Positions 4,609 to 47,305 of a stretch of DNA of 64,000 nucleotides are shown piece by piece. Within the stretch, counting starts at the first letter, position 1; each line of letters opens with the position of its first letter. Position numbers and translations under genes: made by a program. A model generated the notes under the pieces. That model worked only from the letters and a program-made list of their open reading frames with translations. It had not been told where the DNA came from and made no database searches. The DNA is from Selenomonadaceae bacterium (GTDB lineage Bacteria; Bacillota; Negativicutes; Selenomonadales; Selenomonadaceae), in NCBI GenBank assembly GCA_017446845.1, contig JAFSOQ010000055.1, positions 983 to 64,982 of the forward strand, in the 5' to 3' direction.

Positions 4609-5610
4609 ATGATTTATTACCTCGGACTTGGTGCGAACCTCGGCGAGTGCAAGAAAACTTTGCGTCGGGCTATCGAAAGCATAAAAAAAATTCCCGCCGT
4701 TAAACTGTTGCGGGTGTCGTCATTCTACGAAACTGAACCTTGGGGCGTCGAAAATCAACCGGATTACATCAACGCCGCCGTAAAAATTTCCACAACTCTT
4801 GAGCCGCTCACTTTACTCGACGAATTGCAGCGCATTGAATTTGAACTCGGAAGAATTCGCCGCAAACATTGGGAGGCGCGAATCATTGATATTGACATTC
4901 TTTACGGTGAAAAAATTTCTTGCGAGCGTTTGACTGTGCCGCATAAATTTCTTTTTGACCGTGACTTTGCATTGATTCCGCTTAAAGAAATTTTCCCGAC
5001 GTTTGAATTTAAACTTCACGGCGACAAAGTTTTTTTGACTGATGGTTCGCCCGTCGATTTTAAATTTAAACTCGTTGCCTGCGTCAATAAAAATTTCGGG
5101 CTTGGTCGAAACGGAAATCTCCTCTTCCGTATTCCCGAAGACTTGAAAAATTTTCGCCGCCTCACGCTCAATCACACGATTATTTTCGGGCACAATACTT
5201 TAAAAACTTTTCCGAATCAAAAACCGCTTGACGGACGCAGAAACATTATCTTGAGCCGCTCCTTGGAAAAAATTTCGGGCGCGGCAGTCGTCGGCAGTGT
5301 CGAAGAACTTTTTGGCGTGCTCAATTCGGCAGAAAATAATTTCGTCATAGGCGGCGGCAACGTGACGTTGCATCCAATGGACGCGTCCAATCTTTCAACG
5401 GCAATAACAATTCCCCGCGCTCGAACAGATAATTTCGTTATCGGTGGCGAGCAGATTTTTAATGAACTCATTCCATACGCCGAAGAAATATTTTTATCCG
5501 TCGTCGATGAAAATGCTCAAGCCGATAAATTTTTCCCAAGCGTCGACGAATTCACTTTGCGCGACGTGAAAACTTTTGCCGGCTTTGAACTTAGGAGATA
5601 CACTCGATGA
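4609..5610 (+). CDS. folK/folA: Bifunctional HPPK (FolK) / dihydrofolate reductase (FolA) fusion, with a 31-aa repeat-derived insertion in the DHFR domain
   Basis: The N-terminal half has HPPK motifs ([26 protein letters not shown]). The C-terminal half is DHFR ([54 protein letters not shown]). The VIGG motif occurs twice around an insert. Confidence 0.85.
5357..5427 (-). repeat. Copy (a) of a dispersed ~70-95-nt repeat family, inserted in frame in the DHFR-coding region
   Basis: It starts with GCAACGTGACGTTGCATCC. The 18 nt CAACGTGACGTTGCATCC are identical to the reverse complement of 9868-9885, and TCCCCGCGCTCGAAC matches 13 of 15 positions of rc(9815-9829). It is flanked by 22-nt direct repeats (5335-5356 and 5428-5449, 4 mismatches) offset by exactly 93 nt. 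Confidence 0.6.
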
Positions 5611-6893: not shown

Positions 6894-8483
6894 ATGGAAA
6901 AAGTTTCGCCACTCTTGAAGAATAAAAATTTTCTCTACGCCACGGAATTCTTTTCCGGCATGTCGATAATGGCGGTCGAACTCGGAGCCGCTCGGTTGCT
7001 CGCGCCTTATTTCAGCTCATCGCAAATCGTCTGGACAATTATAATCGGCACGATAATGATTGCGTTGGCTCTCGGAAATGTTTGGGGCGGTCGCCGCGCA
7101 GATTTAGACGCGAATCCCGCGAAACTTTATCGCCGATTGATTTTTGCCGCGCTGTGGATTGGTGCAATTCCCGTGCTCGGAAAATATTTAATCCTTGCGC
7201 TCGCCGGAGTTTTAATCGTCGCAATCGACACCAATCTTTTAATTTGGGCGGCGTTCCTGTCGTGCATGGCGATTTTTGTCTTGCCGCTGTTTTTACTCGG
7301 AACCGTCACGCCGTCGCTTGTAAAATATTCAACCGACAATCTCGAACATAACGGACGAATCGTCGGGAATTTAAACGCGTTCAACACAATCGGCAGCATT
7401 ATCGGAACATTCTTGCCGACTTTCGTGACGATACCCGCCGTCGGCACTGCGATAACTTTTTTGATATTTTCGGGCGTCCTCCTGCTTATCGGAATAATTT
7501 ATTTTGTGAGTATCGGAGCTAAGAAAATTTTCTGCGCGGGAGCCGTCGCGATTTTTATTTTGTGCGGCGTGCTGAGTACTTCGAACAGTTTTGCATTTTG
7601 GGAGAAAAATCTTTTGTACGAGGGCGAATCGATTTACAACTATCTTCAAGTCAAAGATACTCCCGACAAAATTATTTTTTCCACGAATGTTTTATTCGGC
7701 GTGCAGTCGCTCAAAGTCAAAGGCGGCGGCTTAACGGGCATGTATTACGATTATGCGCTGGCGGCTCCGTTGCTTGCCGAAAATAAAAAAATTTTGATTC
7801 TCGGCATGGGCACGGGCACTTTCGCCGAACAATGCAGAAAATATTTTCCGTCCGCAAAAATCACAGGCGTTGAGATTGACGATAAAATTACAATGCTCGC
7901 GAAAAAATATTTTTCCTTGCCCGAAGATGTCGAGGTCGTGACTTATGACGGGCGCGCCTTCCTGCAAGCCGATAAAAATTTTTACGACGTGATTTTGGTC
8001 GACGCCTTCCAAGATATTACAATTCCGTTTCAAATGAGTTCGACGGAATTTTTTACGCTGGTCAAGAATCATTTGACGGCGGACGGAATTTTAGTCGTGA
8101 ATATGAACATGCGGGCGAGCGGCGCAGGCAACATCAACGAATATTTGATTGACACGATTGGGAAAAATTTTTCGGCGGTAAAAATAATCGACGCGCGCGG
8201 CGTGACCAACAGAGTTTTATTCGCGGCGGCTGACGAAAAAATTTTGAATCAACTTAAACCCCGCGCAGAAGTTCTTGACGATGAAAATTTATCGCGGCTG
8301 ATGATTCACATTGCCGACACTTGGACGACGCCCGCGCTCGGAGAAAATATTTTGACTGACGACCGCGCTCCCGTCGAAATGTTGAGCATGAGAGCTTTGG
8401 ATAATCTGATTCAGCAAAATTTGCAACACTACAAAGAAATTTATCGGCGCGAAGGTTTAGACGGAATTTTGAACAGTTTTTGA
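6894..8483 (+). CDS. Fused polytopic membrane domain / spermidine-synthase-like aminopropyltransferase
   Basis: The N-terminal ~230 aa are multi-TM. The C-terminal part has a class I MTase-fold SpeE-like core (ILILGMGTGTFAEQ, VEIDDKI, YDVILVDAFQD). Confidence 0.8.
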   Translation: MEKVSPLLKNKNFLYATEFFSGMSIMAVELGAARLLAPYFSSSQIVWTIIIGTIMIALALGNVWGGRRADLDANPAKLYRRLIFAALWIGAIPVLGKYLILALAGVLIVAIDTNLLIWAAFLSCMAIFVLPLFLLGTVTPSLVKYSTDNLEHNGRIVGNLNAFNTIGSIIGTFLPTFVTIPAVGTAITFLIFSGVLLLIGIIYFVSIGAKKIFCAGAVAIFILCGVLSTSNSFAFWEKNLLYEGESIYNYLQVKDTPDKIIFSTNVLFGVQSLKVKGGGLTGMYYDYALAAPLLAENKKILILGMGTGTFAEQCRKYFPSAKITGVEIDDKITMLAKKYFSLPEDVEVVTYDGRAFLQADKNFYDVILVDAFQDITIPFQMSSTEFFTLVKNHLTADGILVVNMNMRASGAGNINEYLIDTIGKNFSAVKIIDARGVTNRVLFAAADEKILNQLKPRAEVLDDENLSRLMIHIADTWTTPALGENILTDDRAPVEMLSMRALDNLIQQNLQHYKEIYRREGLDGILNSF

Positions 8484-8565: not shown

Positions 8566-9696
8566 GTGGAAAAAATTTTGCAATTCATAGCGAAGGAAAC
8601 GGGCGGCGAAAGTTATCGCACGTCCAGAATGGAACTCGATATTGAAAATTCTTCCGAGCTGATTGAATACGAAGTGCCCGCCGAAATTGTTTCCAAACAC
8701 GCGGGCGAAACTCGTCCGCCGAAAAATTATTTTTCCCTTGAGGAACACGCTAAAAATTTTTCTTCAAGCGGACAGATTTTAAATTACTTTTTGGACGGCT
8801 CGCGGCACGTCTACAAAATTGACGACATTGCTTACAATCACGGTGTGCGCAAAATGATTTATCCGATTGTCGCCGGTCAAGTCGTGGCGGGCTGTTGTCG
8901 ACGCGTCGATAAAAAATTGCACGCGGAAAATTTTTCTGCGGAGATTGTCCTTGCCGTTCCCGACGTGACCAATCCCGACAGCCACAAAGGATTTTTTCCC
9001 GCGCTTGTCAGCAAAATTAATGAGCGTTTCAAAATAAAAATTTCAAAAATTTTGCCATACAAAACGGACAGTAAGCCCGCCGAAAAATTTGAAGACCGCG
9101 CCGTCGCCAAGATTATGGAGCACATGCACAACACCGAAATAAATTTTGTCGCCGAACTCGTCAGGCGCGGCAAGCTCGACCAAAAAAATTATCTCGTCAA
9201 GGACGGTTCGCTTGAGTATAAAGTTTTGACCGAGAGAAAATTTAACCCCAAGAATTACAGCTTTGTTATCGGCGTCTCGAAAAAATTTAATCCGCTGCTC
9301 GTGAAAAATTCCAAAGACAAAAACGATCCCGGACTTGTCGCCGACCTGCCGCTTTTTTATCGCACGCCCGTCACGATTTTTGAACGCGGCAATTTCCACG
9401 AAGGAAATAAATTTGCGGTGTGGTATGTTCGTCTGCGCGATAAAAAATATTCCGATTCGCCCTTTGACGGCGTTGTTAAGGTTGAAAAAATTTTGGTCAC
9501 GGATGCCGAGCGGGATAACGACAAAATCGACAGCGACGATGTAGATCTTTTGAGCGCGTATCTTATCAACGAGCGCAATCCTGTTTGCTACGGCGCGGAC
9601 GGTCGTTGGGCGAATCACATTTATCCGATTTTTCTTACCGAAAGTTTTATCAAGTCGAGATTTATTTCCGCAGAAACATTTTTGAACTTATTTTAA
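8566..9696 (+). CDS. NurA-like (RNase H-fold) nuclease, 376 aa
   Basis: GTG start with AGGAGG 5 nt upstream. NurA-type motif order: FLDGS (D77), MEH (E185), VKDGSL (D213), VIGVSKKF, IYPIFLTE near the C-terminus. It is immediately upstream of a HerA-like ATPase, as in HerA-NurA operons. Confidence 0.6.
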   Translation: MEKILQFIAKETGGESYRTSRMELDIENSSELIEYEVPAEIVSKHAGETRPPKNYFSLEEHAKNFSSSGQILNYFLDGSRHVYKIDDIAYNHGVRKMIYPIVAGQVVAGCCRRVDKKLHAENFSAEIVLAVPDVTNPDSHKGFFPALVSKINERFKIKISKILPYKTDSKPAEKFEDRAVAKIMEHMHNTEINFVAELVRRGKLDQKNYLVKDGSLEYKVLTERKFNPKNYSFVIGVSKKFNPLLVKNSKDKNDPGLVADLPLFYRTPVTIFERGNFHEGNKFAVWYVRLRDKKYSDSPFDGVVKVEKILVTDAERDNDKIDSDDVDLLSAYLINERNPVCYGADGRWANHIYPIFLTESFIKSRFISAETFLNLF

Positions 9697-9885
9697 ATTG
9701 GGCTAGAAATGCGCATGCATTTCGTACGGACGCGGCTACTCGGATAAAAATTTTTAAGCGGTGCGGCGCGTCAGCTGTTTGTCAACTTTTTAAAAGTTGT
9801 GCGCATGCATTTTCGTACGAACGCGGGGACAACGTTAAAAATTTTTAAGCGGTGCGGCGCGTCAGCCGGATGCAACGTCACGTTG
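9697..9885 (+). repeat. Copies (b1, b2) of the dispersed repeat family: two tandem ~90-nt units inserted between the NurA-like and HerA-like genes
   Basis: GCGCATGCATTT(T)CGTACG(G/A)ACGCGG...AAAAATTTTTAAGCGGTGCGGCGCGTCAGC occurs at 9711-9776 and again at 9801-9867 (period 90). The near-palindrome CAACTTTTTAAAAGTTG lies between the units. The element ends in GCAACGTCACGTTGC and is bounded by a duplicated 29-mer (9668-9696 and 9886-9914). Confidence 0.8.
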
Positions 9886-9923
9886 CCGCAGAAACATTTT
9901 TGAATTTATTTTGAGGTGAACAC

Positions 9924-11537
9924 ATGAGCGAGATTATCGGACGCGTCGCGGCTACTGAAAAATTCCCGTCGACCATGGACAAATTTTATTTTTGGACGAA
10001 CGCCGAATTCAGATTGAATGCCTTCGACGTGGTTAAAGTAAAACATTTGGACGAATCATTTTCTTTCGGCACGGTGGAAAATATTTTTCACATAACCGAC
10101 GCGAAAAGTTTTTTGACGAATTACATTTCCTGCGATTTTGGCGACACGAACATAAGCGCGCCGACTTTGCGAATCGGCATGAATTATGTTGAGGTCGCCG
10201 TTTCTTTTAACACAAAAAATATTTATACGCCCGTCAAAAATGATTCGGCGGTTTACCTGGCAAGCGCGGAAGAAATCGAAATGGCGTTGGGGCTCGACAA
10301 GATAAAAAATAAATTGCCCTGCGGCTATCTGAAAATGTACGAAGGTCACGCCGACAAAGAAATTATTTTGCCCGTGAATCTCGACGCACAATTTATTTTA
10401 GGTCCGGAAGGTGCTCACTTAAATATTTCGGGCATATCGGGCTTGGCGGCGAAAACCAGTTACGCGATGTTCCTTATGAAGTCCGTGCAAGAAAATTTTT
10501 CCGATTGCGCGTTCATAATTTTTAACGTTAAGGGCAAAGACTTAATGGCGATTCATCAACCGAACGACGAAGACTCCGCGCCGATTTATAAAAATTTGAA
10601 TTTGAGCGGCGAGCCTTTTGAAAATGTTCATTACTACGCGCCGCGAGACAATAAAAGCGTCACGAGCTACTTGCCGCCCGAAGACGCCGAAAATTATCTT
10701 GCCGAAGGTCTGATGAAAAAATTCGCTTACATTTACGAGGACGACCGCGAGTCTTTGGAAATGCTCTTCGCCGACATTGACGACACGACGCAGACGATGG
10801 ACTCGATTATCAGCAAAATTATCGACCCGAACGATTACGACTTCGGCGGGATTTCTAATTGGGACAGTTTTTTAAATAAGGTCAACGAATTGTCGCAGAA
10901 AGGTAATGCCAAAGAAATTTCCGTTTTGAGTTGGCGCAAGTTCAAACGCATAATCAACAAGGCGATAAAAAATGATGCGATGTTCGTAAATCACACGGCT
11001 CCGAATTTTGAATGCCGCCTCGAAGACGAATTGAAAAATATTTCGGCGGGTTCGGTCAGCGTGATTGACATTGCAAAGCTCGGCAGCGATAAGCAGGCGT
11101 TTGCTTTCGGCGACGTACTCAAGACGATTTACAAACTCAAGCTCGGCGATTACGATATAACTCCGCCGTCGAAGATAATTATCTTCATGGACGAGTTAAA
11201 TAAATTTGCCGGAAAGGATACGACGAAAAATTCTCCGATATTGCGCCAGATTTTGGACGTGGCAGAGCGCGGACGGTCATTGGGAATAATTTTATTCGGC
11301 GCGGAACAATTTCGCTCGAACATTCACCCGCGAGTTACGGGGAATTGTTCAACGCTTGCTTTCGGTCGCACGAACGTTTTAGAGACGACGACCAAAGATT
11401 ATTCTGCATTGCCCTCGACATATAAAAATATTTTGACGCGACTGGAGCAGGGCGAATACGTCATACAAAATCCGATTTTCCGTTCGCTGCTCAAAGTCAA
11501 ATTCCCGAAGCCCGCTTACAAACAGTTCAAAGATTAG
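9924..11537 (+). CDS. HerA-like (FtsK-HerA superfamily, DUF87-type) ATPase with N-terminal HAS-barrel, 537 aa
   Basis: N-terminal GRVAATEKFPSTMDKFYFWTN...FDVVKV looks like a HAS barrel. The P-loop GISGLAAKTS (res 170-179) has Ala in place of the usual Gly before Lys. Walker B is IIIFMDELNKF (D423-E424). The arginine-finger region AERGRSLGIILFGAEQFRS is like HerA EGRK.G..l...SQRPS. Confidence 0.7.
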   Translation: MSEIIGRVAATEKFPSTMDKFYFWTNAEFRLNAFDVVKVKHLDESFSFGTVENIFHITDAKSFLTNYISCDFGDTNISAPTLRIGMNYVEVAVSFNTKNIYTPVKNDSAVYLASAEEIEMALGLDKIKNKLPCGYLKMYEGHADKEIILPVNLDAQFILGPEGAHLNISGISGLAAKTSYAMFLMKSVQENFSDCAFIIFNVKGKDLMAIHQPNDEDSAPIYKNLNLSGEPFENVHYYAPRDNKSVTSYLPPEDAENYLAEGLMKKFAYIYEDDRESLEMLFADIDDTTQTMDSIISKIIDPNDYDFGGISNWDSFLNKVNELSQKGNAKEISVLSWRKFKRIINKAIKNDAMFVNHTAPNFECRLEDELKNISAGSVSVIDIAKLGSDKQAFAFGDVLKTIYKLKLGDYDITPPSKIIIFMDELNKFAGKDTTKNSPILRQILDVAERGRSLGIILFGAEQFRSNIHPRVTGNCSTLAFGRTNVLETTTKDYSALPSTYKNILTRLEQGEYVIQNPIFRSLLKVKFPKPAYKQFKD

Positions 11538-15342: not shown

Positions 15343-16231
15343 AATTTTAATCACGGCGCACATTCAGCCCGACGGCGACGCAATCGGCTCGACGCTGGCT
15401 TTAATGCAAATGCTCCGTTCAATCGGGAAGTCCGCGCAGATTTTCATTGACGATACCGTCAGAAAAAATTTGCACGCCTTGCCGCACTTTGAAGAAATTC
15501 GCCGACCGGAGGACGGAGAAAAATTCGACGCGGATTTAATGATTGTTTTGGACACTTCGATTGACAGGATTGGCGGCGTGAGAAAATTGACCGACGCGCC
15601 GATTTTGAATATTGATCACCACGTCACGAACAAAGGCGGCGATTTTGAACTTTACGTTGAGACGTCGGCGGCAGCGACTTGCGAAATTATTTTCAAGCTT
15701 GCCGCCGAACTCGAAGTTGAAATCACGCCCGAAATTGCCACGTGTCTTTACACGGGTTTGGCGACGGACACGGGCTTTTTCCAATTCTCGAACACTCGCG
15801 CGGAAACTCTTGCTACTGCCTCCGAATTGATTCGACGCGGTGTGAGTCCGCATTTTATTTCCGAACAGCTTGAGCAAAAATCTTTGTCGGAAGTGCGCGG
15901 GCTTAGTGCGGCTTTGAATTCGCTGAAAATGTTTTACGACGAAAAAGTTGCGGGCATGATTCTCGACCATGACACTGCGAAAAAATTTGACTCGACGGAA
16001 GGCTTTATCGATGAAATTCGCGTAATTGAGACCGTCGACGTGGCGTTTCTTATCACGGAAAAAGCTCCGAATTTTTGTCGCGTGAGCATGAGGTCAAAGG
16101 GCGTCAACGTTGCGCAAATTGCTGACAAACTCGGCGGCGGCGGACATATCAGAGCGGCGGGTTGCACGTTGAAAATGCCGCTTGACGAAGCAGAAAAAAT
16201 TTTAGTCGCGGCAATCGGCGAAGCGTTATGA
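15293..16231 (+). CDS. nrnA: DHH-family phosphoesterase NrnA (oligoribonuclease / pAp phosphatase)
   Basis: Motifs HIQPDGDAIGS, DHH (IDHHV), DTGFF and GGGH; ~310 aa. Confidence 0.85.
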   Translation: MMITLKEAAQKIKAANKILITAHIQPDGDAIGSTLALMQMLRSIGKSAQIFIDDTVRKNLHALPHFEEIRRPEDGEKFDADLMIVLDTSIDRIGGVRKLTDAPILNIDHHVTNKGGDFELYVETSAAATCEIIFKLAAELEVEITPEIATCLYTGLATDTGFFQFSNTRAETLATASELIRRGVSPHFISEQLEQKSLSEVRGLSAALNSLKMFYDEKVAGMILDHDTAKKFDSTEGFIDEIRVIETVDVAFLITEKAPNFCRVSMRSKGVNVAQIADKLGGGGHIRAAGCTLKMPLDEAEKILVAAIGEAL

Positions 16232-47214: not shown

Positions 47215-47305
47215 CAACTTTTAAAAAGTTGCCAAATAGTTGACGCGCCGAAACGTTTCGATAATTTTAACGTAGACGCCGCGCCGGAACGCAACCATTG
47301 CTAGC
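47215..47305 (-). repeat. Copy (c) of the dispersed repeat family, intergenic (trxB / yjiH-like)
   Basis: CAACTTTTAAAAAGTTGCCAAATAGTTGACGCGCCG...GCTAGC aligns end to end with the reverse complement of unit b1 (9701-9799: GGCTAG...GGCGCGTCAGCTGTTTGTCAACTTTTTAAAAGTTG). Confidence 0.65.

What the first reader, a model, noticed from the sequence alone, without database searches (positions are those of the whole stretch)
9668..9914. 218-bp repeat insertion splits the NurA-like/HerA-like junction and duplicates the last 29 bp of the nuclease gene
The 29-mer CCGCAGAAACATTTTTGAACTTATTTTAA (9668-9696) encodes the last 9 codons and stop of the NurA-like gene. It recurs as CCGCAGAAACATTTTTGAATTTATTTTGA at 9886-9914, with 2 mismatches, one of which changes TAA to TGA. 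The second copy is followed by GGTGAACAC-ATG of the HerA-like gene. This looks like the ancestral tight junction (stop, SD, start). Between the copies lie two tandem ~90-nt units and a terminal palindrome GCAACGTCACGTTGC. Flanking duplications of 20-30 bp are much longer than classical transposon target-site duplications. That points to an unusual insertion or repair mechanism, or to an element that carries a replacement gene end.
Basis: seen in the sequence. Interest (0 to 1): 0.6.

Follow-up and report, generated by a model that had tools for sequence, protein, structure and literature searches.

The report
Hairpin repeat insertion duplicating gene end
A 190-base mobile hairpin repeat landed between two DNA-repair-type genes and copied the last 28-29 bases of the first gene, and it belongs to an apparently undescribed family, found in several bacterial phyla, that shares a fixed 19-base end and often makes unusually long, variable target duplications.

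Summary
Bases 9668-9696 recur at 9886-9914 with 2 mismatches, flanking two tandem repeat units that end in GCAACGTCACGTTGC.

The nearest sister lineage (91.5% nt) and 11 of 13 related genomes carry the empty site ...TTATTTTGA-GGTGAxCAC-ATG. The 29-mer occurs nowhere else in the genome. An independent assembly (99.4% nt) has the same insertion.

The insert belongs to a family at about 70 loci in this genome. About a dozen of those loci carry locus-specific flank duplications of 15-44 nt, against 4 of 3000 control sites.

The family's 19-nt tail, GGATGCAACGTCACGTTGC, is exact in Selenomonadales (including Quinella), Clostridia, Fusobacteria, Verrucomicrobia, Planctomycetes and an Alphaproteobacterium, attached to different bodies. 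Of 198 tails, 68 are followed at once by a copy of upstream sequence (non-tandem cases 15-61 nt). That copy starts with C in 31 of 40 non-tandem cases. The other element end is variable or truncated.

I infer a one-ended, tail-anchored insertion with a long staggered target break. The enzyme is unknown: reverse transcriptase, RAYT, IS4-type transposase and small GIY-YIG nucleases do not track the tails.

Earlier notes of this scan describe similar gene-end duplications beside other hairpins in other phyla.

The parts
8566..9696 (+). NurA-like gene (376 aa). Its last 9 codons and TAA stop are the upstream copy of the duplication.
   Evidence: ORF list. Orthologues lie next to HerA-like genes in 13 related genomes. 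No Pfam or PADLOC hit.
9668..9696 (+). Upstream (functional) copy of the duplicated target, CCGCAGAAACATTTTTGAACTTATTTTAA. It carries two derived synonymous changes (AAC, TAA).
   Evidence: The sister lineage has AAT and TGA.
9697..9799 (+). Unit 1 of the insert. It has a full head (ATTGGGCTAG plus hairpin 9706-9723), a core bounded by GACGCGG (9729-9735) and GGCGCGTC (9765-9772), and the tail-c hairpin CAACTTTTTAAAAGTTG (9783-9799).
   Evidence: It is 96-97% identical to copies at G000 C128:15709-15780 and C37:13420-13490.
9800..9886 (+). Unit 2 of the insert. Its head is truncated (starts TGCGCATGCATTTTCG). A core follows, then the universal tail GGATGCAACGTCACGTTGC (9868-9886), which includes the palindrome at 9872-9886.
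   Evidence: The same two-unit composite occurs at G000 C29:66600-66856.
9887..9914 (+). Downstream (remnant) copy of the target, CGCAGAAACATTTTTGAATTTATTTTGA. It retains the ancestral AAT and TGA and starts directly after the tail.
9915..9923 (+). Native spacer with the Shine-Dalgarno-like GGTGA (GGTGAACAC) in front of the HerA-like start codon.
   Evidence: It is identical in the sister lineage and near-identical in 11 relatives.
9924..11537 (+). HerA-like ATPase gene (537 aa).
   Evidence: Matches PDB 7f6d HerA at E = 2.6e-35. ORF list.
5335..5449 (-). A second member of the family in the window. A head-truncated unit (5357-5427, reverse orientation) is inserted in frame in the DHFR domain, between 22-nt direct repeats (5335-5356 and 5428-5449) that each encode NFVIGG.
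   Evidence: The insertion is missing in 20 or more genomes of the genus and shared with G023.
47227..47294 (-). A third member of the family in the window (G000 C29:48209-48276). It has the tail-c hairpin, directly followed by AGGAGG and an ATG.

Best explanation
WHAT IT IS. Bases 9697-9886 are a recent insertion of a two-unit composite from a small, gene-less, hairpin-rich mobile repeat family. The insertion went into the tight stop/SD/start junction of a NurA-like/HerA-like operon. It was accompanied by a 28-29-nt duplication of the target.

EFFECT ON THE GENES. The upstream copy completes the NurA-like gene. The downstream copy preserves the native sequence in front of the HerA-like ribosome-binding site. 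Neither gene is damaged, but the stop-to-start gap (last stop base to ATG) grows from 9 to 227 nt.

HOW IT LIKELY WORKS (inferred). The family inserts by a one-ended, tail-anchored route:
- The 3' foot of the terminal hairpin (...GGATGCAACGTCACGTTGC) is joined precisely to the target, usually 5' of a C (R|C-G/C).
- The other junction forms 15-60 nt further along the target and at a variable point within the element. This gives truncated heads or extra sequence at that end.
- Filling in the long staggered break, or re-copying the target after a template switch, produces the long, variable direct repeat.
- Afterwards, unequal crossing-over between the repeats builds F-E-F-E-F arrays.

SHOWN VERSUS INFERRED. 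Shown here: the insertion, the empty site, the target duplication, the polarity (exact tail junction, loose head junction), the preference for C, the family-wide and cross-phylum occurrence, and the fixed 19-nt tail. Inferred: the staggered cleavage or primed copying. The enzyme is unknown.
For: THIS LOCUS.
- Empty sites in 11 of 13 relatives and in the 91.5%-identical sister lineage.
- The same insertion in an independent 99.4%-identical contig from another sample.
- The 29-mer is unique to the locus.

THE FAMILY IN THIS GENOME.
- The family occupies about 70 loci in the genome.
- 11-12 of those loci have locus-specific flank repeats of 15-44 nt, against 4 of 3000 controls.

OTHER GENOMES.
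- The same pattern, with repeats up to 61 nt, appears in another species of the genus and in other phyla.
- Pooled, 68 of 198 tails are followed within 2 nt by a repeat of 14 nt or more. Random positions in the same loci give 27 of 3000.
- Tail copy numbers include 70 in Propionigenium maris and 85 in an Oscillospiraceae MAG.

POLARITY AND TARGET.
- In 33 of 40 non-tandem cases the identity stops exactly at the tail end.
- The repeat starts with C in 31 of 40 cases, and the base before it is a purine in 28 of 40.
- Inserts range from 32 nt (13 nt plus tail, with a 37-nt repeat) to 313 nt, showing a variable head end.
- Other tail hairpins of the family (GTCGCTTTTAAAGCGAC, CAACTTTTTAAAAGTTG) also abut repeats.

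OTHER.
- An independent insertion of a different member sits at the same junction in G018, with only about 7 nt duplicated.
- No terminator or promoter signal in the insert exceeds shuffled controls.
Against: No enzyme was found. RVT_1, Y1_Tnp and DDE_Tnp_1 do not co-occur with tail abundance. No gene recurs next to tails in 120 loci. No larger repeat-flanked element was seen.

Two thirds of tails show no flank repeat. Either those insertions are old or more than one process is at work.

Mismatches between repeat copies follow a 3-nt period (31 of 52 pairs, p about 1.5e-4). They often cluster at the head-side end. Simple duplication followed by neutral decay of the unused copy does not predict this.

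The pooled 198-tail set mixes three sources and is not a random sample of genomes.
Confidence: 0.62

Rival explanations
1. Replacement gene end carried in by recombination or homing. Under this reading, the element with the gene end attached to it moves between diverged strains or species by gene conversion. This resembles yeast WHO elements, which replace the 3' end of FBA1 at each homing event. The upstream copy would be foreign and the downstream copy would be the displaced native end.
For: Differences between repeat copies follow a 3-nt period and are often synonymous (L051, L070 and L119 with 4 of 4 in one phase; 31 of 52 pairs; p about 1.5e-4).

Divergence rises stepwise near the head junction while the reading frame and the stop position are kept (L051, L060, L098, L113, L120).

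F-E-F-E-F arrays hold different 'alleles' of one gene end (L068, L070).

The WHO precedent is described in PMC7282813.
Against: At this locus only two differences exist. Both are derived in the functional copy, and that number is compatible with ordinary drift along an 8.5%-diverged branch.

No other species among those searched carries this insertion to act as a donor.

The family sits at about 70 different loci, each with its own flank repeat, including non-coding targets and a terminator hairpin. No endonuclease gene travels with it.

The 3-nt period can also come from later import of diverged empty alleles by ordinary homologous recombination.
Confidence: 0.15
2. No dedicated mobility. Under this reading, host replication slips or switches template at strong hairpins, copies a hairpin unit from elsewhere and re-copies 15-60 nt of the local template (copy-choice or microhomology-mediated repair).
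For: No enzyme was found. Three different hairpin tails abut flank repeats. The microhomology AACGCG lies at the head junction of C129 and CGACGA/CGACGC at that of L052. Tandem arrays restart at a point that is fixed within each array but differs between arrays.
Against: An exact 19-mer that is invariant across several phyla, attached to unrelated bodies, argues for sequence-specific recognition and not for structure alone. There is no microhomology at the tail junction in 33 of 40 cases. The preference for a target C is unexplained.
Confidence: 0.15
3. Assembly artefact of a metagenome-assembled genome, in which repeat-induced mis-joining created the duplicated 29-mer.
For: The genome is a 142-contig, 73.6%-complete MAG. 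Family copies often lie at contig ends (C103, L243). Reads could not be checked.
Against: The left junction is reproduced in an independent assembly from another sample. The two copies differ at 2 positions. The same architecture recurs in many genomes from many projects, including cultured isolates. The in-frame DHFR insertion is shared by two species.
Confidence: 0.03
4. A selected regulatory or structural element, like REP/BIME (mRNA stabiliser, protein-binding site). Under this reading its presence here is functional and the duplication is incidental.
For: The tail and the CGCGG...GCGCG clamp are invariant across copies. Compensatory changes occur in the head and tail-c hairpins. Many copies sit just upstream of SD sequences.
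Against: This reading does not explain how the insert arrived or why the flanks are duplicated. The insert is absent from nearly all orthologous junctions. No terminator or promoter signal exceeds chance, and the whole-insert fold has z = -0.73. No pair covaries in the core.
Confidence: 0.05

Closest known systems
IS1634 / IS1549 (IS1634 family of DDE insertion sequences)
   Same: They generate long direct repeats of variable length on insertion (8-514 bp), by a mechanism that remains unexplained (PMC2266710).
   Different: They are autonomous elements (about 1.5-2 kb; size from my own knowledge) that encode a large DDE transposase. Here the elements are 30-300 nt and carry no gene. Only one end is exact. 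DDE_Tnp_1 genes are missing from tail-rich genomes G021 and G026, with only a weak sub-threshold fragment in G016.
SINE/LINE-type target-primed insertion in eukaryotes (own knowledge)
   Same: Unrelated bodies share a conserved 3' tail hairpin. The 3' junction is exact, the 5' end is truncated or carries extra sequence, and the target duplications vary in length.
   Different: No reverse transcriptase tracks the tails: G011 has 122 tails and no RVT_1 hit, and G016 is 100% complete with 32 tails and no RVT_1 hit. There is no A-rich tail. The hosts are bacteria, where no such retroposon is known.
REP/BIME, MITEs (Correia/NEMIS, RUP, BOX, ERIC) and Rickettsia palindromic elements (own knowledge; REP/RAYT in PMC2817692)
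   Same: These are short, hairpin-forming, modular, mostly intergenic dispersed repeats. Mosaic composites occur. In-frame insertion into genes occurs, as with RPEs (here in DHFR).
   Different: MITEs have terminal inverted repeats and short duplications of fixed length. REPs have no duplication and a RAYT partner. Here there is no RAYT, no clear terminal inverted repeat, duplications of 15-61 nt, and a terminus conserved across phyla.
Ssn nucleases with NTS/SRM hairpin repeats (PMC11893778)
   Same: Hundreds of oriented hairpin repeats per genome, related across several phyla, recognised as single-stranded DNA by a small nuclease.
   Different: The NTS/SRM motif (CGTCATTCCCGCG...GGGAATC) differs from this tail. 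No small GIY-YIG gene lies next to tails. GIY-YIG counts follow tail counts only loosely. I saw no mention of flank duplications in the parts of that paper I read.
WHO homing elements of yeasts (PMC7282813)
   Same: The gene's 3' end is duplicated, and a displaced remnant lies downstream. Arrays of remnants build up.
   Different: WHO elements encode their own endonuclease and target one gene. Here gene-less elements sit at dozens of unrelated sites.
CRISPR spacer acquisition and casposon integration by Cas1 (own knowledge)
   Same: Staggered attacks roughly 14-36 bp apart on the target, followed by fill-in, duplicate a long stretch on either side of a short insert.
   Different: In those systems the duplicated length is fixed by the repeat or the enzyme, and the inserted DNA has no constant end. 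Cas1 co-occurrence was not tested.

Membership tests
MITE (non-autonomous DDE-transposon derivative) | Terminal inverted repeats at both ends | tested here: not met
   Only the tail end is constant. The head end is truncated at many positions or separated from the flank repeat by other sequence. The head/tail resemblance AACGYGRCG is weak.
MITE (non-autonomous DDE-transposon derivative) | Short target duplication of fixed length | tested here: not met
   Flank repeats range from 15 to 61 nt in 40 non-tandem cases, about 7 nt in G018, and 28-29 nt here.
REP/REPIN with RAYT | A Y1 (RAYT) transposase gene in the genome, usually flanked by its REPs | tested here: not met
   No Y1_Tnp hit in G000 or in 5 tail-rich genomes of the genus, including one that is 100% complete. 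Y1 genes in other tail-bearing genomes have no tails nearby.
IS1634-family element or its derivative | An IS4-type DDE transposase present where the element is active | tested here: not met
   DDE_Tnp_1: 21 hits in G011 and 9 in G018, but 0 in G026 (63 tails) and G021 (36 tails), and one weak fragment in G016. G000 has only degraded copies.
IS1634-family element or its derivative | Long direct repeats of variable length on insertion | tested here: met
Retroposon inserted by target-primed reverse transcription | A reverse transcriptase encoded in genomes that hold active copies | tested here: not met
   RVT_1 is absent from G000, G011, G016, G018, G023, G031, G034 and G064 despite 25-122 tails each (counts). 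It is abundant in G019, which has 6 tails.
Retroposon inserted by target-primed reverse transcription | Exact 3' junction, 5' truncation, variable target duplication | tested here: met
Ssn/SRM system | A small single-domain GIY-YIG nuclease gene associated with the repeats | tested here: not met
   No such ORF lies near tails in 120 loci. The GIY-YIG hits in G000 are UvrC plus I-TevI/Seg-like proteins with NUMOD3 motifs, and no tail lies within 3 kb of them.
Homing element carrying a replacement gene end (WHO-like) | An endonuclease gene carried by the element, and one specific target gene | tested here: not met
   The elements carry no gene and sit at about 70 different loci.
Homing element carrying a replacement gene end (WHO-like) | The upstream gene-end copy derives from a foreign allele | tested here: inconclusive
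   At this locus there are two synonymous derived changes, compatible with drift. At other loci the mismatches follow a 3-nt period.
Known RNA families (Rfam 15) | A match at or near the gathering score | tested here: not met
   The only hit is a chance-level Hsp90_CRE match (16.8 bits against a threshold of 50, E = 6.3).
HerA/NurA pair (host operon) | HerA-type ATPase | tested here: met
   PDB 7f6d HerA, E = 2.6e-35, over residues 378-534.
HerA/NurA pair (host operon) | NurA nuclease domain | tested here: inconclusive
   No Pfam or PADLOC hit. Only the conserved adjacency to HerA-like genes supports it. No structure was predicted.

The most novel reading that the evidence does not exclude
The 19-nt tail would mark a previously unrecognised, cross-phylum class of minimal mobile DNA. 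Members can be as short as about 30 nt. They would spread by a one-ended, hairpin-anchored copy-in reaction, catalysed by an as yet unidentified and probably widely conserved trans-acting protein that nicks at the hairpin foot and at R|C target sites. Such a reaction inherently produces 15-60-nt target duplications. This would let the elements colonise gene ends, gene starts and even coding regions of compact genomes without breaking genes.
Probability: 0.3. Interest if true: 0.9.

Novelty: new variant of a known kind. Interest (0 to 1): 0.75.

Why it matters
Classical bacterial transposons are defined by short target duplications of fixed length. Only two insertion sequences are reported to make long, variable ones, and how they do so is unexplained.

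This family has no gene of its own. It has one exact end that is identical from rumen Selenomonadales to soil Verrucomicrobia and a marine Fusobacterium relative. It often carries duplications longer than the insert itself.

If an enzyme reads this tail, it is a widespread and unknown DNA-processing activity, and possibly a useful site-specific tool.

The long duplication also explains how such elements can enter operon junctions with 9-nt spacers, gene starts and a DHFR coding region without inactivating genes. That bears on genome annotation (pseudo-starts, remnant gene ends, in-frame insertions) and on how intergenic regions grow.

Cultured carriers exist, including Propionigenium maris DSM 9537 with 70 tails, so the question can be tested directly.

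Tried and rejected
- Rfam scan of 9000-10600 with permissive filters found nothing above chance.
- Reverse transcriptase (PF00078), RAYT/IS200 transposase (PF01797) and IS4-type DDE transposase (PF01609) were searched in the own genome, 60 relatives, 5 tail-rich genus genomes and 4 tail-bearing genomes of other phyla. None co-occurs with tails.
No small GIY-YIG lies beside tails. The copies in G000 are I-TevI/Seg-like and far from tails.
- Clustering all ORFs of 120 aa or more in 120 cross-phylum 8-kb loci gave no protein family recurrently adjacent to tails.
- A search for larger elements bounded by the same flank repeat up to 9 kb away found none.
- Plasmid and phage collections hold no whole tail, only chance-level partial matches.
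- Full-text search for the tail sequence gave no relevant paper. Keyword searches for long target duplications returned only the IS1634/IS1549 and REP/RAYT literature. Two searches failed on term-length rules.
- RNAalifold on 48 core-plus-tail units found only invariant clamps and no covariation, so a conserved RNA structure is not shown.
- My automatic assignment of reading frames to mismatches was unreliable. I replaced it with a frame-free 3-periodicity test.
- The metagenome scan with the NurA-like protein gave only distant relatives, 59% identity or less.
- One coincidence was set aside as a curiosity: from my own memory of the enzyme, untested here, a GGATG(10/14) type IIS enzyme such as StsI would cut the bottom strand exactly at the tail end.
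Full report
1. THE OBSERVATION

CCGCAGAAACATTTTTGAACTTATTTTAA at 9668-9696 ends ORF 8566-9696. CCGCAGAAACATTTTTGAATTTATTTTGA at 9886-9914 is followed by GGTGAACAC and the ATG of ORF 9924-11537.

The repeat finder reports 9665-9694 and 9883-9912 as a 30-nt pair at 93% identity, 218 nt apart. It also reports two internal units, 9720-9775 and 9811-9866, at 88% identity and 91 nt apart.

The palindrome GCAACGTCACGTTGC lies at 9872-9886. Its last base is therefore shared with the second 29-mer, and the duplication is 28 or 29 nt.

The 29-mer occurs only at these two places in the 2.19-Mb assembly.

The downstream gene is HerA-like: it matches PDB 7f6d HerA at E = 2.6e-35. The upstream gene has no Pfam or PADLOC hit, so its NurA label is unconfirmed. 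It is, however, paired with the HerA-like gene in all 13 relatives that have it.

2. IT IS AN INSERTION INTO A TIGHT JUNCTION

Thirteen orthologous junctions were read from genomes of the same genus and class. Eleven run ...TTT-stop-9 nt-ATG, mostly ...TTATTT TGA GGTGAxCAC ATG.

The nearest relative without the insert was found through the protein database. It is 93% identical in protein and 91.5% in DNA, and it reads ...CCGCAGAAACTTTTTTGAATTTATTTTGA|GGTGAACACATGAGCGAG.

The downstream copy in the window therefore keeps the ancestral AAT and TGA. The upstream, functional copy carries two derived changes, AAC and TAA, and both are synonymous. Two changes in 29 nt along a branch of a few per cent need no special explanation.

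A contig from a different sample (99.4% nt identity) shows the same left junction...TTATTTTAA|ATTGGGCTAGAAATGCG..., before it ends inside the repeat. The event is thus real. It is younger than the 8.5% split from the sister lineage and older than the 0.6% split from that contig.

One other species (G018) has a different member of the family inserted at the same junction, directly after TGAG, with only about 7 nt duplicated. That is an independent hit.

3. THE INSERT BELONGS TO A DISPERSED, MODULAR FAMILY

The 189-nt insert finds 56 matches in its own genome, which merge into about 70 loci. Copies are built from three kinds of module:
- An optional head: (ATTAGG)CTAG plus a 7-bp hairpin that shows compensatory variants (GCAATGC.../GAAATGC...).
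- A core bounded by invariant CGCGG and GGCGCG.
- One of several tail hairpins: (a) GGATGCAACGTCACGTTGC, (b) GTCGCTTTTAAAGCGAC, (c) CAACTTTTTAAAAGTTG.

The insert here is unit 1 (full head, core, tail c; 9697-9799) followed by unit 2 (truncated head, core, tail a; 9800-9886). The same two-unit composite lies at the far end of the same contig, with a compensatory change in the tail-c stem. The composite probably moved as one piece.

There is no Rfam match. No promoter-like or terminator-like signal exceeds shuffled controls. The whole insert folds no better than shuffles (z = -0.73).

An alignment of 48 core-plus-tail units shows only invariant clamps and an invariant tail, with no covariation.

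4. LONG FLANK DUPLICATIONS ARE THE FAMILY'S HABIT

I searched the flanks of all about 70 loci for direct repeats that occur nowhere else in the genome. Eleven or twelve loci have them. Their lengths are 15, 17, 17, 19, 19, 24 (extending to 40), 25, 26, 29, 31, 33 and 44 nt. Random non-coding pseudo-sites give 4 of 3000.

The repeats often contain a gene end or a gene start. Examples are the SD plus the first 8 codons at C35, and the SD plus ATG of a minus-strand gene at C57. After insertion one complete copy of the gene end or start survives.

A head-truncated unit lies in frame in the DHFR domain (5357-5427), between 22-nt repeats that each encode NFVIGG. I confirmed three things:
- At least 20 genomes of the genus lack these 31 codons.
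- One species (G023) shares them.
- The reverse complement of the tail is translated as GNVTLHP.

5. THE TAIL IS SHARED ACROSS PHYLA

Within the class sampled, the 19-mer (one mismatch or fewer) occurs in 21 of 37 genomes of the genus, at 2-120 copies. It occurs in none of 24 genomes of other genera.

The carriers include:
- Selenomonadales, including Quinella (the window's genus holds Quinella sp. 2Q5)
- Oscillospiraceae, Christensenellaceae, Ruminococcus and Lachnoclostridium
- Fusobacteriaceae, including Propionigenium maris DSM 9537
- Chthoniobacterales, Udaeobacter and Methylacidiphilaceae
- Planctomycetes
- an Alphaproteobacterium

Copy numbers reach 70 in P. maris and 85 in an Oscillospiraceae MAG.

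The sequence upstream of the tail differs between lineages, usually another hairpin. The 19-mer itself is constant.

In many of these genomes the bases right after the tail repeat a stretch 30-110 nt upstream. One example is L098, where ...AACACCAAAATTTAA (gene end) is followed by a 34-nt body, the tail, and then ...AACACCAAGCTTTAGGAGG...ATG. This is the same picture as in the window.

6. POOLED ANATOMY

I pooled three sources: this genome, 28 loci of another species of the genus (G011) and the 120 cross-phylum loci. This gave 198 distinct tails.

Sixty-eight tails (34%) are followed within 2 nt by a repeat of 14 nt or more, 65 of them at offset 0. Random positions in the same loci give 27 of 3000.

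Among the 40 non-tandem cases:
- The repeats are 15-61 nt long.
- Identity stops exactly at the tail end in 33.
- The repeat begins with C in 31, often as CGGCG, CGCCG or CCGC.
- The base before the upstream copy is a purine in 28.

The distance from the end of the upstream copy to the tail end ranges from 32 to 313 nt. In L120 a 37-nt repeat flanks only 13 nt plus the tail. In L117 a 46-nt repeat flanks 22 nt plus the tail.

So the tail junction is exact and has a target preference. The head junction is loose: heads are truncated, extra sequence occurs, and now and then there is microhomology, such as AACGCG at C129.

Arrays of the form F-E-F-E-F (L068, L070, C82) are what unequal crossing-over between such repeats would make. 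Tails b and c also abut repeats.

7. HOW IT MOST LIKELY WORKS

The data fit a one-ended, tail-anchored insertion. The foot of the terminal hairpin is joined to the target at R|C. The second junction forms 15-60 nt away on the target and at a variable point in the element. Repair of the staggered break, or re-copying after a template switch, then duplicates the interval.

This is an inference from anatomy. No intermediate or enzyme was seen.

The pattern resembles target-primed insertion of eukaryotic SINEs: a shared 3' tail on different bodies, 5' truncation and variable duplications. But reverse transcriptase genes do not track the tails. G011 has 122 tails and none. G016 is 100% complete with 32 tails and none. 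G019 has 6 tails and 15.

The other candidates also fail:
- RAYT-type Y1 transposases are absent from the genus genomes tested.
- IS4-type DDE transposases are absent from several tail-rich genomes.
- Small GIY-YIG nucleases of the Ssn type (PMC11893778) are not found beside tails.
- No gene recurs near tails, and no larger repeat-flanked element exists in the data.
- Plasmid and phage collections lack the tail.

The invariance of the 19-mer across phyla argues for a sequence-reading protein acting in trans. The fact that other hairpin tails behave alike argues that structure matters too.

8. AN UNEXPLAINED FEATURE

Differences between the two copies of a repeat follow a 3-nt period: 31 of 52 mismatch pairs are congruent, against one third expected, with permutation p about 1.5e-4. 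They often cluster at the head-side end, while the frame and the stop position are kept (L051, L060, L098, L113, L120). Stop codons frequently differ between copies (TAA, TGA, TAG).

Neutral decay of the unused copy does not predict this. Two explanations remain:
- Later homologous import of diverged empty alleles.
- Spread of the element together with a donor's gene end, as in yeast WHO elements (PMC7282813).

At the locus in hand the polarity is resolved. Both changes are derived in the functional copy and both are synonymous, so neither explanation is needed here.

9. CONSEQUENCES AT THIS LOCUS

The NurA-like protein is unchanged. The HerA-like gene keeps its native 28 nt of upstream context, its SD and its start. 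The stop-to-start gap (last stop base to ATG) grows from 9 to 227 nt, so any translational coupling is probably lost. No terminator is predicted. These effects are inferred, not measured.

10. COMPARISON AND NOVELTY

The closest precedent for long, variable duplications is IS1549/IS1634 (8-514 bp, mechanism unknown; PMC2266710). Those are autonomous DDE elements.

REP/BIME elements, MITEs and Rickettsia palindromic elements share the small, hairpin-rich, sometimes in-frame lifestyle. They do not share the one-ended precision, the long duplications or a terminus common to several phyla.

I found no paper that holds the tail sequence. The paper library is limited to open-access text.

Earlier notes of this scan report gene-end duplications beside other hairpins in CPR bacteria, Woesearchaeota and Flavobacteriaceae. 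These are unchecked AI notes. They suggest the phenomenon is broader than this tail.

I file the finding as a new variant of a known kind (small non-autonomous mobile repeats). I give about a 30% chance that the mechanism is categorically new.

11. LIMITS

The genome is a 73.6%-complete MAG. Read mapping was unavailable. The pooled tail set is a convenience sample. Absence of a gene family in a MAG is weak evidence. The mechanism is inferred from sequence alone.

Noticed in passing
window 5335-5449: A head-truncated member of the same family is inserted in frame in the DHFR domain of the folK/folA ORF (4609-5610). It adds 31 codons (..[13 protein letters not shown]...TD NFVIGG..) and duplicates the NFVIGG-coding 22 nt. 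The insertion is absent in at least 20 genomes of the genus and shared with G023, so it has survived a speciation while being translated.
   Followed up: yes
L036 (G018:C69, NurA/HerA junction): A different member of the family (78 nt, same 19-nt tail) is inserted independently at the same NurA-stop/HerA-SD junction in another species, with only about 7 nt (TTYTGAG) duplicated.
   Followed up: partly
G000 C121:4993-5715, C118:35877-36884, C38:472-1065, C34:9073-10290 (outside the window): The genome has four intact (plus two fragmentary) free-standing GIY-YIG proteins with repeated NUMOD3-like motifs, some also with HTH-like tails. They resemble I-TevI/Seg homing endonucleases and are multi-copy in several genomes of the genus. 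No tail repeat lies within 3 kb of them.
   Followed up: partly
many family loci, e.g. G000 C8:7260-7300, C52:26922-26960, C35:75877-75960: Arrays of TTAGGAG/TTAGGAA heptads and their inverse (TCCTAA...) often sit directly upstream of the head module ATTAGGCTAG. They may be a further module of the mosaic.
   Followed up: no
window 47227-47294 (G000 C29:48209-48276, minus strand) and C53:52624, C118:6504, C9:14744: Copies with the tail-c hairpin are directly followed by AGGAGG and a start codon. The element ends within a few bases of the ribosome-binding site of the next gene.
   Followed up: no
L241/L242 (sister lineage of the operon): In the 91.5%-identical sister lineage a 244-aa gene with a weak HNH hit lies immediately upstream of the NurA-like gene. 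The window has a spermidine-synthase-like methyltransferase gene (6894-8483) there instead. The operon's upstream neighbourhood therefore differs between close relatives.
   Followed up: no
G000 C91:15761-15793 and 16050-16082: A 33-nt locus-specific direct repeat with 2 mismatches turned up among the random control sites. It lies about 440 nt from the family copy at C91:15257-15323, so it fell outside my exclusion zone. It may flank another kind of insert.
   Followed up: no
tail, window 9868-9886: The tail starts with GGATG. From my own memory of the enzyme, untested here, a type IIS enzyme of the StsI kind (GGATG 10/14) would cut the bottom strand exactly at the tail/target junction. This is recorded only as a coincidence.
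   Followed up: no
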